Source: Candidatus Helarchaeota archaeon
GTDB taxonomy: Archaea; Asgardarchaeota; Lokiarchaeia; Helarchaeales; RDOG01
Direction: 5' to 3'
DNA length: 64,000 nucleotides
Assembly (NCBI GenBank): GCA_019058315.1
Contig: JAHPZH010000001.1
Coordinates: 881,432 to 945,431, forward strand
A program made the translations under genes and the position numbers. How positions within the stretch are numbered: position 1 is the first letter of the stretch; every line of letters starts with the position of its first letter. Of the stretch, positions 8,036-8,563 are shown in pieces. The notes under the pieces are model-generated. The model was not told where the DNA came from and searched no databases. It saw only the letters and a program-made list of their open reading frames with translations.

Positions 8036-8241
8036 TGGTGCCGGGGCTAGGGCGTCAAGGCTTGAAAGAGCCTTAATTAGATCTTGCTTACATAATTTAA
8101 TTTATATTATTTCTTAAAAATACTTAAATATAAAAATATCGCATACACCCATAAGCGCGGCGGACGCTTAGATAGACCGTCTAAGTTCTGTGCATTATTC
8201 GGATTACTGGTATACAACCTTCAATTCGATCCTGCCCCAGC
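8036..8241 (-). ncRNA. putative ~206-nt structured ncRNA, copy 1 (tRNA-like terminal stem, 3' ACCA)
   Basis: 5'-GCUGGGGC-AGG pairs with CCU-A-GCCCCGGC-ACCA-3'; internal hairpins; homologous to 8366-8563; TATA box at -22..-29. Confidence 0.8.
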
Positions 8242-8262
8242 TATAAAGTGAATTTCCCGTAC

Positions 8263-8277
8263 TATTTAAATCTTTGG
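8263..8277 (-). promoter_or_regulatory. BRE/TATA promoter of ncRNA copy 1
   Basis: Minus strand CCAAAGA-TTTAAATA; TATA at 8263-8270, 22-29 nt upstream of the predicted 5' G at 8241. Confidence 0.65.
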
Positions 8278-8339
8278 AAATTTCTTCGTTGTATTATGTT
8301 CAAATTTTTTTTTCTTTAATCTATGATGATTAAATTATT

Positions 8340-8360
8340 AAAATAAAAAATGAATAAAAG
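8340..8360 (-). terminator. oligo-T terminator after ncRNA copy 2
   Basis: Minus strand CTTTTATTCATTTTTTATTTT starts a few nt after the ACCC end. Confidence 0.5.
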
Positions 8361-8365
8361 TAATA

Positions 8366-8563
8366 GGGTGCCAGGACGGAGGTAAGTCAAGGCCTGACGG
8401 AGCCTTAAATTCGGATACACTTATTAATCTATTTTAAATAAGTTTTGAGACGTAAGGTTTACATCTTACAACCGTTGGAATGACGGATTCCAAGATAGAC
8501 CATCTTACAATTACCAAGTAAGGATATGAGTTCTACAACCATCAATTCGATCCTCGTCCTGGC
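8366..8563 (-). ncRNA. putative ~198-nt structured ncRNA, copy 2 (tRNA-like terminal stem, 3' ACCC)
   Basis: 5'-GCCAGGACG-AGG pairs with CCU-C-CGUCCUGGC-ACCC-3'; shares conserved blocks and hairpins with copy 1; TATA box at -23..-30. Confidence 0.8.

What the first reader, a model, noticed from the sequence alone, without database searches (positions are those of the whole stretch)
8057..8544. Covarying long-range pseudoknot and overlapping alternative hairpins inside both RNAs
Seen: the 3' hairpin is AAGGCU-[CUUUCA]-AGCCUU in copy 1 (8057-8074) and AAGGCU-[CCGUCA]-GGCCUU in copy 2 (8389-8406). Each 6-nt loop is complementary to its own 5' segment: UGAAGG (8218-8223) and UGAUGG (8539-8544), with A-U changing to U-G and G-U to G-C. 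Centrally, both copies have a hairpin with loop YGGUCUA (8167-8185; 8492-8506) that overlaps a second hairpin with a fully changed stem but conserved CCGYC loop (8152-8170; 8475-8493). Inference: selection acts on a complex fold, possibly a switch, second pseudoknot or catalytic core.
Basis: partly seen in the sequence, partly recalled or inferred. Interest (0 to 1): 0.72.

Follow-up and report, generated by a model that had tools for sequence, protein, structure and literature searches.

The report
Pseudoknotted partner RNA of DUF7873 protein
The two tandem ~200-base RNAs are real members of an uncatalogued folded RNA family, held together by a strongly covarying long-range pseudoknot, that always sits beside one small protein gene of unknown function in Asgard archaea, bacteria and one viral contig, so RNA and protein probably form an undescribed particle.

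Summary
Both RNAs lie on the minus strand: copy 1 at 8037-8241 and copy 2 at 8367-8563.

The loop-to-5'-segment pseudoknot is real. In 32 distinct homologues all six pairs change on both sides, and 92% of cells stay paired. It also recurs with new sequences in bacterial and viral-contig members.

The hairpin with the CCGYC-type loop (hairpin B) covaries across the family. The overlapping YGGUCUA-loop hairpin (hairpin A) occurs in only 12 of 32 members. There the two folds are predicted to be nearly isoenergetic, so a switch is possible but shown only in silico. I found no second pseudoknot and no evidence of catalysis.

The RNA matches no Rfam family. It starts 21-23 nt after an archaeal TATA box and lies 12-41 nt upstream of a 227-aa DUF7873/DIP1984-fold gene in every archaeal locus examined. 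In bacteria and one viral contig it lies downstream of the gene, with P1 followed by a U-run in several loci. The gene is patchy, found in 7 of 121 Asgard genomes.

Best reading (about 0.6): the RNA is the protein's cognate partner, forming a particle of unknown function. Earlier notes of this scan reported DIP1984-like gene-plus-RNA modules on other DNA.

The parts
8037..8241 (-). RNA copy 1 (about 205 nt), from the first base of P1 to the ACC tail; followed after 21 nt by the ATG of the 227-aa gene, with no T-run in between
8367..8563 (-). RNA copy 2 (about 197 nt); stands alone with no ORF behind it
8231..8241 (-). Copy 1, P1 5' strand GCUGGGGCAGG; pairs with 8040-8051, with A8048 bulged
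   Evidence: P1 matched vs mismatched duplex energy -16.3 vs -6.5 kcal/mol
8040..8051 (-). Copy 1, P1 3' strand CCUAGCCCCGGC, followed by ACC(A) at 8039-8036
8224..8232 (-). Copy 1, conserved GGAUCGAAU block (family consensus GGAYCRAAU); its two G also close P1
   Evidence: invariant and near-invariant columns
8218..8223 (-). Copy 1, pseudoknot 5' strand UGAAGG
8063..8068 (-). Copy 1, pseudoknot 3' strand: loop CUUUCA of the 3' hairpin (hairpin 8057-8074)
8167..8185 (-). Copy 1, hairpin A with loop CGGUCUA (conserved GUCUAYC motif); clade-specific stem
8152..8170 (-). Copy 1, hairpin B (7 bp, loop CCGCC); covaries across the family
8263..8270 (-). TTTAAATA box 21 nt upstream of copy 1's first base (inferred archaeal TATA box; implies the transcript starts at P1)
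8552..8563 (-). Copy 2, P1 5' strand GCCAGGACGAGG; pairs with 8370-8382, with C8378 bulged
8539..8544 (-). Copy 2, pseudoknot 5' strand UGAUGG
8395..8400 (-). Copy 2, pseudoknot 3' strand: loop CCGUCA of the 3' hairpin (hairpin 8389-8406)
8492..8506 (-). Copy 2, hairpin A with loop UGGUCUA
8475..8493 (-). Copy 2, hairpin B (7 bp, loop CCGUC)
8586..8593 (-). TTTAAATA box 22 nt upstream of copy 2
8335..8365 (-). T-runs (T4, T6, T4) just after copy 2: inferred archaeal terminator
7332..8015 (-). 227-aa gene (P0001), DUF7873/DIP1984-fold protein; the RNA's constant neighbour

Best explanation
Each unit is a compact, closed, roughly 200-nt RNA.

Its parts, 5' to 3':
- a long helix (P1) joins the 5' and 3' ends;
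- a conserved GGAYCRAAU block follows the P1 5' strand;
- the next 6-7 nt pair with the loop of the 3'-terminal hairpin, a long-range pseudoknot that clamps the two ends of the molecule;
- a central domain carries a GUCUAYC motif, a covarying hairpin (B) and three spaced YGUA motifs.

In archaea the RNA is transcribed from its own TATA box as the first part of the messenger for a 227-aa DUF7873/DIP1984-fold protein. In bacteria it forms the tail of that messenger. I infer that the RNA is the protein's cognate binding partner and that the two act together as a ribonucleoprotein. The extra gene-less copy 2 supplies more of the RNA component.

Shown: the fold (P1, pseudoknot, hairpin B, 3' hairpin), the strict RNA-gene linkage in either order, and the patchy distribution.

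Inferred: the transcript ends, any processing, the binding, and that the particle serves an accessory cellular function, possibly conflict or mobile-element related.
For: Covariation. On 32 distinct RNAs the given structure (P1 ends, pseudoknot, hairpin B, 3' hairpin) is 86% paired and scores 0.522. Shuffles average 0.187 (0 of 500 reach the observed value) and slid partners reach at most 0.137. The pseudoknot is 92% paired, with all 6 pairs changed on both sides. There are 25 distinct pseudoknot duplexes. Matched versus mismatched partner energy is -6.5 vs -3.0 kcal/mol.

Linkage. An HMM search found the RNA immediately upstream of every archaeal-type homologue examined. Gaps to the start codon are 12-41 nt with no T-run longer than 4.

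Reversed order. The RNA lies downstream of the gene in:
- L191 and L124;
- Actinomycetota, Myxococcota and Planctomycetota loci;
- roughly a third of the 75 bacterial loci scripted, which show the motif block 26-48 nt after the stop plus a complementary hairpin loop about 145 nt later;
- the one viral contig.
The pseudoknot is kept with new sequences there: GUGU.GG/CCACAC, GAUGGU/ACCAUC, UUAGUAG/CUACUAA.

Copy 2. It has its own TATA box and T-run terminator and no ORF. It differs from copy 1 by 8 compensatory double changes and no broken pair. This argues that structure is selected in a free-standing RNA.

Protein. It is about 50% identical between archaea and bacteria, which indicates strong constraint.
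Against: The protein has no recognised RNA-binding domain and no solved relative.

Co-transcription with the gene fits a purely cis-acting control element equally well. Only this genome shows a gene-less copy.

Many myxobacterial-type loci were not matched by my simple motif script. Linkage in bacteria is therefore shown for many loci, not all.
Confidence: 0.6

Rival explanations
1. The RNA is a purely cis-acting autoregulatory element. It is a leader in archaea and a 3' UTR in bacteria. The protein or another factor binds it to set the gene's own translation or stability, as in ribosomal-protein leaders, and the RNA has no role outside the messenger.
For: The RNA is always on the same transcript side-by-side with the gene: no terminator separates RNA and ORF in archaeal loci, and Shine-Dalgarno-like GGUGA follows the RNA. 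In bacteria P1 followed by a U-run looks like the operon terminator.
Against: A cis element rarely keeps one and the same 200-nt fold while moving from the 5' to the 3' side of the gene. Copy 2 has no gene to regulate yet keeps every helix through compensatory changes. The pseudoknot and P1 do not touch the ribosome-binding site or start codon.
Confidence: 0.2
2. The RNA is a metabolite- or ion-sensing riboswitch. Its bistable central domain (hairpin A versus hairpin B) is the switch that controls the downstream gene.
For: The architecture is a closed P1 plus a pseudoknot. In 12 of 32 members the A-type and B-type folds lie within 0.1-3.3 kcal/mol of each other. Both a:b and b:c pairings change compensatorily in win2, L128 and L071.
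Against: There is no expression platform. Hairpin A is absent from 20 of 32 members. The RNA lies behind the gene in bacteria. Family-wide specificity of hairpin A is weak. Rfam riboswitch models do not match.
Confidence: 0.05
3. The RNA is a tRNA-like molecule. P1 would act as an acceptor stem, the 3' hairpin as a T-arm, and the pseudoknot as an exaggerated D-loop/T-loop contact. It would be recognised by tRNA enzymes (RNase P, tRNase Z, CCA-adding enzyme, RtcB) and the protein would act on its end.
For: ACC(A) follows P1 in copy 1 and ACC in about 60% of archaeal members. ACC also follows P1 in Actinomycetota members. GGAUCGAAU resembles GUUCGAAUC. One metagenomic gene call fuses an RtcB N-terminus to this protein.
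Against: ARAGORN finds nothing. The 3' hairpin loop is 6-10 nt of free-varying sequence, not a T-loop. Five or more unpaired nucleotides separate the hairpin from P1. The ACC tail is missing in Heimdall-type and other distant members. The RtcB fusion sits on a 1.7-kb contig without the RNA and may be chimeric.
Confidence: 0.08

Closest known systems
Ro60 (Rsr) with bacterial Y RNAs (Yrn1, YrlA/YrlB)
   Same: A structured RNA of about 100-200 nt is encoded next to the gene of its protein partner, sometimes as tandem RNA copies. The 5' and 3' ends are paired and part of the RNA resembles tRNA. Distribution is patchy and accessory. This comparison rests on my own knowledge of the family.
   Different: There is no Ro/TROVE gene nearby, and no Rfam Y_RNA or YrlA match. 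The protein has a different, unsolved fold. A long-range pseudoknot defines this RNA.
tmRNA tRNA-like domain with SmpB
   Same: The ends form an acceptor-like helix followed by ACC(A). A hairpin lies just upstream of the 3' strand. Pseudoknots are present, and there is a dedicated small protein partner.
   Different: ARAGORN reports no tmRNA. There is no canonical T-loop and no tag reading frame. The tail is not conserved family-wide. Archaea lack SmpB, and this protein is not SmpB-like.
OMEGA guide RNAs of IscB (HEARO RNA, upstream of the gene) and TnpB (downstream of the gene)
   Same: A pseudoknotted RNA of 150-250 nt is genetically locked to one protein gene, on the 5' side in one lineage and the 3' side in another. 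Occurrence is patchy and looks like that of a mobile element.
   Different: The protein is 227 aa with no RuvC or HNH nuclease domain. Both RNA ends are buried in P1, so there is no free guide segment. No transposon ends were seen, and HEARO does not match in Rfam.
DIP1984 / DUF6847 family (PDB 3KDQ) and DUF7873 (Pfam PF25283)
   Same: The predicted fold of P0001 matches atlas clusters of both families (TM 0.53/0.55 and 0.49/0.75). Homologues reach the DUF7873 model. A bona fide DUF6847 gene elsewhere in this genome matches 3KDQ (E 7e-05).
   Different: P0001 itself is below the Pfam cut-offs (DUF6847 E 0.009). It is about 60-80 aa longer than DUF6847 proteins. None of these families has a known function.

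Membership tests
Any Rfam 15 family | Covariance-model score at or above the family's gathering threshold | tested here: not met
   No hits in the whole window. No hits in 16 related archaeal and bacterial loci. The permissive search of 7900-8700 gave only chance-level rows with E above 3.
Long-range (loop to single strand) pseudoknot | Hairpin-loop bases pair with a distant segment, and the pairing is maintained by compensatory changes | tested here: met
   Columns 29-34 with 249-254 of A6 are 92% paired, and 6 of 6 pairs have double changes. There are 25 distinct duplexes, and matched vs mismatched energy is -6.5 vs -3.0 kcal/mol. The pairing is also kept in bacterial and viral-contig members.
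tRNA / tRNA-like domain (tmRNA, YrlA, mascRNA type) | 7-nt T-loop of conserved sequence on a 5-bp stem stacked directly on the acceptor helix | tested here: not met
   ARAGORN reports nothing. The loop is 6-10 nt and its sequence varies freely with the 5' strand. Five or more unpaired nucleotides (GACAA) separate the hairpin from P1.
tRNA / tRNA-like domain (tmRNA, YrlA, mascRNA type) | Discriminator plus CCA at the 3' end | tested here: inconclusive
   The tail is ACCA in copy 1 and ACCC in copy 2. ACC is present in about 60% of archaeal members and some Actinomycetota, and absent in Heimdall-type and other members. The mature 3' end is unknown.
Riboswitch / cis-regulatory leader | Located in the 5' UTR with an expression platform (terminator or sequestered ribosome-binding site) coupled to the aptamer | tested here: not met
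   There is no T-run and no pairing with the Shine-Dalgarno or start region between the RNA and the ORF. The RNA lies downstream of the gene in bacteria, L191, L124 and the viral contig.
   Hairpin B is specific (-5.0 vs -1.6 kcal/mol). Hairpin A is weak (-2.1 vs -1.4) and is found in 12 of 32 members. In those members the two folds differ by 0.1-3.3 kcal/mol.
Type III toxin-antitoxin RNA (ToxI-like) | Tandem array of short (about 36-nt) repeats upstream of an endoribonuclease toxin that processes them | tested here: not met
   The units are about 200 nt. A second copy occurs only in this genome, and every other locus gave one hit. The protein has no PADLOC or toxin-family match.
Bulge-helix-bulge excised or circular archaeal RNA | A helix extending beyond the RNA's base, with two 3-nt bulges spaced by 4 bp | tested here: not met
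   The TATA box sits 21-23 nt upstream of the first P1 base, so the transcript should start at P1, leaving no 5' flank to form the outer helix. P1 has a single 1-nt bulge.
DUF7873 / DUF6847 (DIP1984) protein superfamily | Pfam model match at or above the gathering score | tested here: inconclusive
   P0001 scores 16.4 bits against DUF6847 (cut-off 27). Homologues P0112 and P0108 score 31.1 and 26.5 bits against DUF7873 (cut-off 27).
DUF7873 / DUF6847 (DIP1984) protein superfamily | Shared fold | tested here: met
   The AlphaFold model (pLDDT 88) matches a DUF7873 cluster at TM 0.53/0.55 and a DIP1984 cluster at TM 0.49/0.75. The language-model search puts the DUF7873 cluster first at 0.96.

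The most novel reading that the evidence does not exclude
The RNA and the DUF7873/DIP1984-fold protein form a previously unrecognised class of ribonucleoprotein shared by Asgard archaea, several bacterial phyla and phages. The pseudoknot-clamped, tRNA-end-like RNA would be the functional core (sensor, scaffold or substrate mimic). In the Loki-type clade its central domain would toggle between two folds to control the particle's activity.
Probability: 0.25. Interest if true: 0.88.

Novelty: categorically new. Interest (0 to 1): 0.74.

Why it matters
Uncatalogued structured RNAs of this size that are conserved across both prokaryotic domains are rare. Earlier examples such as tmRNA, Y RNAs and OMEGA RNAs each turned out to mark a distinct molecular machine.

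Here the fold is already well constrained by natural covariation. The protein partner is identified and predicted with high confidence. Cultured carriers exist in Nocardiopsis, Murinocardiopsis and Streptomonospora. The question 'what does a DIP1984-fold protein do?' therefore becomes directly testable.

For Asgard biology, it adds a horizontally shared accessory RNA-protein module.

Tried and rejected
- **20-nt pattern search.** Allowing 3 mismatches in 400 Asgard genomes gave mostly noise. None of the fetched hits carried the 3' hairpin.
- **Full-length covariance model.** I used nhmmer and a 92-position model of the 5' domain instead.
- **Candidate helix between the GUCUA motif and the segment before the second GUA.** No specificity: -1.2 vs -1.0 kcal/mol.
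- **Loop B pairing with that same segment.** Weak: -2.6 vs -1.7 kcal/mol.
- **Second pseudoknot.** A scan of all well-aligned column pairs recovered only the known pseudoknot and hairpin B with 4-5 pair types. The variable region could not be assessed.
- **Protein family searches.** No NCBIfam or PADLOC match. No PDB relative by sequence profile, Foldseek or VIA-align, where only generic helical hairpins scored Z up to 9.1.
- **Gene neighbourhoods.** Neighbours of homologues are not conserved.
- **RtcB link.** It rests on one short, possibly chimeric contig.
- **Literature.** Searches for DUF7873, DUF6847/DIP1984 and Asgard structured RNAs found nothing relevant.
- **Bacterial promoter reading.** A TTTAAA-17-TTTATA reading was considered and dropped. 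The organism is archaeal, and the box keeps a fixed 21-23 nt distance to P1.

Full report
**Observation**

Both RNAs lie on the minus strand. G-U pairs in P1 and in the pseudoknot would be A-C mismatches on the plus strand.
- The 3' hairpins are 8074-8057 and 8406-8389.
- The complementary 5' segments are UGAAGG (8223-8218) and UGAUGG (8544-8539).
- The two loop:segment duplexes differ by one double change (A-U to U-G) and one single change (G-U to G-C).
- Hairpin A (loop YGGUCUA) is at 8185-8167 and 8506-8492.
- Hairpin B is at 8170-8152 and 8493-8475. It shares 4 nt with hairpin A in copy 1 and 2 nt in copy 2. Its stem carries four double changes and one single change in seven pairs.

GCUGGGGC-AGG (8241-8231) pairs with CCU-A-GCCCCGGC (8051-8040). 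GCCAGGAC-GAGG (8563-8552) pairs with CCUC-C-GUCCUGGC (8382-8370). Each is followed by ACC. Across the two copies I count eight compensatory double changes and no broken pair. MFE z-scores are -2.0 and -3.4.

**Identity searches**

- Rfam 15 gives no hit in the window at gathering thresholds. A permissive search of 7900-8700 gives only chance-level rows.
- ARAGORN finds no tRNA or tmRNA.
- The genome (5.8 Mb, 12 contigs) holds only these two copies.
- An earlier scan note calls the genome a Helarchaeales Asgard archaeon. I did not test the order. The relatives found below are Asgard MAGs.

**The neighbour gene**

Copy 1 ends 21 nt before the ATG of a 227-aa ORF (7332-8015, minus strand; P0001).
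- Pfam gives only a sub-threshold DUF6847 match (E 0.009). NCBIfam and PADLOC give nothing.
- The protein has 254 database homologues with E at or below 0.001. The 120 best listed are 50-97% identical.
- They occur in Loki-, Hod-, Heimdall-, Odin- and Sigyn-type Asgard MAGs. At about 50% identity they also occur in Nocardiopsis and other Actinomycetota, Myxococcota, Planctomycetota, Verrucomicrobiota and Armatimonadota.
- Some homologues reach Pfam DUF7873.
- An AlphaFold model (pLDDT 88) shows four long helices packed on a beta sheet.
- It matches atlas clusters of DUF7873 (TM 0.53/0.55) and DIP1984/DUF6847 (TM 0.49/0.75).
- It matches no solved structure convincingly.
- The gene is accessory. 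It was found in 7 of 121 Asgard genomes of at least 90% completeness, in 5 of 51 genera, and in one IMG/VR contig.
- Neighbouring genes are not conserved.

**The RNA travels with the gene**

The upstream regions of the Asgard homologues show the same RNA by eye. An HMM of the first 15 sequences, then of 32, finds it directly upstream of every archaeal-type homologue fetched from genomes and metagenomes.

In 16 or more of 30 archaeal loci a TTTAAATA-type box lies 21-23 nt before the first P1 base. In the window these boxes are at 8270-8263 and 8593-8586. That is the spacing of an archaeal TATA box to its start site, so the transcript should begin at P1.

The gap from the RNA to the start codon is 12-41 nt. 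It contains no T-run longer than four and often carries GGUGA. RNA and ORF are therefore co-transcribed; this is an inference.

Copy 2 is different. It has its own box and is followed by T4, T6 and T4 runs and no ORF.

A tree groups copy 1, copy 2 and L122 without resolving them. The path length between the two copies is about 0.73 changes per site, so the duplication is old.

**The order is reversed elsewhere**

The RNA lies downstream of the gene in several settings.
- In L191 the RNA follows the gene.
- In L124 it also follows the gene and is cut by the contig end.
- Reading the 300 nt after the stop codon of bacterial loci shows the same parts in Actinomycetota. These are P1 followed by ACC, ACCGAAG, a pseudoknot strand, CGUA, CGCCUACC, a hairpin B, GUUGUA and a 3' hairpin.
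- In L107, L089 and L078 a U-run follows P1, as in an intrinsic terminator.
- A 92-position covariance model of the 5' domain hits six bacterial-type loci downstream of the gene.
- A motif-plus-hairpin script was run on 75 bacterial loci. In roughly a third it finds the block 26-48 nt after the stop and a complementary hairpin loop about 145 nt later.
- The viral contig has the RNA behind the gene as well, with P1 followed by U8.
- None of 16 archaeal and bacterial loci matches an Rfam family.

**Structure tests**

On the 32-sequence MAFFT alignment A6, the structure P1-ends + pseudoknot + hairpin B + 3' hairpin gives these values.

| Measure | Value |
|---|---|
| Cells paired, whole structure | 86% |
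| Covariation score | 0.522 |
| Score in shuffles | 0.187 (0 of 500 reach the observed value) |
| Score when partners are slid | at most 0.137 |
| Pseudoknot, cells paired | 92% |
| Pseudoknot, pairs with double changes | 6 of 6 |
| Example column pair 31/252 | AU 16, GC 9, UA 4, GU 2, UG 1 |

There are 25 different pseudoknot duplexes among the 32 RNAs. Pairing each 5' strand with its own partner versus another sequence's partner gives the energies below.

| Element | Matched (kcal/mol) | Mismatched (kcal/mol) |
|---|---|---|
| Pseudoknot | -6.5 | -3.0 |
| P1 | -16.3 | -6.5 |
| Hairpin B | -5.0 | -1.6 |
| Hairpin A | -2.1 | -1.4 |
| Loop B with the pre-GUA segment | -2.6 | -1.7 |
| GUCUA motif with that segment | -1.2 | -1.0 |

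Hairpin A has five or six pairs in only 12 of 32 members. In those members, folds forced to contain A or B differ by 0.1-3.3 kcal/mol. Examples are -9.0 vs -8.9 in copy 1 and -8.3 vs -6.3 in copy 2. All other members can form only the B-type fold.

A scan of all well-aligned column pairs recovers the pseudoknot and hairpin B and nothing else of comparable quality.

Steric note, from my own knowledge of pseudoknot geometry. All six loop bases and the full six-pair stem cannot form together, so the closing U-A/U-G pair probably opens.

Other conserved elements are GGAYCRAAU after P1, GUCUAYC, a GUC(A) in loop B, and three YGUA motifs.

**Mechanism**

What is shown:
- a compact closed fold clamped by a pseudoknot;
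- obligate linkage to one protein family in either gene order;
- a gene-less yet structurally maintained copy in this genome.

These facts fit a cognate RNA-protein particle best (about 0.6). They fit a purely cis-acting autoregulatory element less well (about 0.2). They argue against a riboswitch (about 0.05), because there is no expression platform and the RNA lies at the 3' side in bacteria. The tRNA-like reading (about 0.08) is a resemblance only. There is no T-loop, the hairpin and P1 are not contiguous, and the ACC tail is not universal.

The function of the particle is unknown. Patchy spread across domains and a viral occurrence hint at an accessory or conflict-related role, which is inference.

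**Relation to earlier scan notes**

Several notes describe DIP1984-like gene-plus-RNA modules in other genomes, and one describes such a module elsewhere in this genome. I confirmed that a DUF6847 gene exists on contig C5 and matches PDB 3KDQ. I also confirmed that bacterial members of the present family carry the RNA behind the gene. My RNA HMM does not detect the RNA of the C5 module, so that is a different RNA family.

**Verdict**

The feature belongs to an RNA family absent from Rfam and from the searched literature.

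Noticed in passing
window 8600-8842 (+): Decayed short-chain dehydrogenase gene. A mid-protein segment (frame of 8600) and the C-terminal NAASFVTGHNLVVDGGF... segment (frame of 8602) survive. The N-terminus and about 130 internal residues are missing. It abuts the promoter of RNA copy 2, which suggests a past rearrangement or insertion at this spot.
   Followed up: partly
window 8918-9070 (-): A 50-aa ORF with a ribbon-helix-helix (CopG/Arc-like) sequence pattern lies about 350 nt upstream of copy 2 on the same strand. 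It is not seen next to the RNA in other loci.
   Followed up: no
G000:C5:698629-699129, = L015:1345-1845 (-): The same genome holds a second, smaller paralogue-type gene of 166 aa. It is a bona fide DUF6847 member (E 4e-10) and matches PDB 3KDQ (E 7e-05). Earlier scan notes say it too has a structured RNA beside it. My RNA HMM does not detect that RNA, so it is a different RNA family.
   Followed up: partly
L143 (Ga0209536_100424914), protein P0101: A gene call joins an RtcB N-terminus (about 90 aa) to residues 68-227 of the P0001 family on a 1.7-kb contig, with no RNA upstream. It may be a real fusion or an assembly chimera.
   Followed up: no
L117 / L195 (1762-1951 of L117): In this RNA copy the GGAUC block reads GAAUC, GUUGUAA reads GUUAUAA, and the P1 3' strand is damaged. 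It is possibly a decaying member.
   Followed up: no
window 4339-7229 (-), compared with L122 and L123: A Hydrolase_4 gene and a prenyltransferase/squalene-cyclase-like alpha-toroid gene lie near the P0001 gene here. One or the other recurs next to homologues in L123 and L122. This is weak residual synteny, not a conserved operon.
   Followed up: partly
G000:C5:1027907-1027946 (+): A weak 40-nt match (E 0.07) to the 5' block of the RNA (GGACCGAAUUCGGGGUUGUA), without the rest of the fold. It is probably chance.
   Followed up: no
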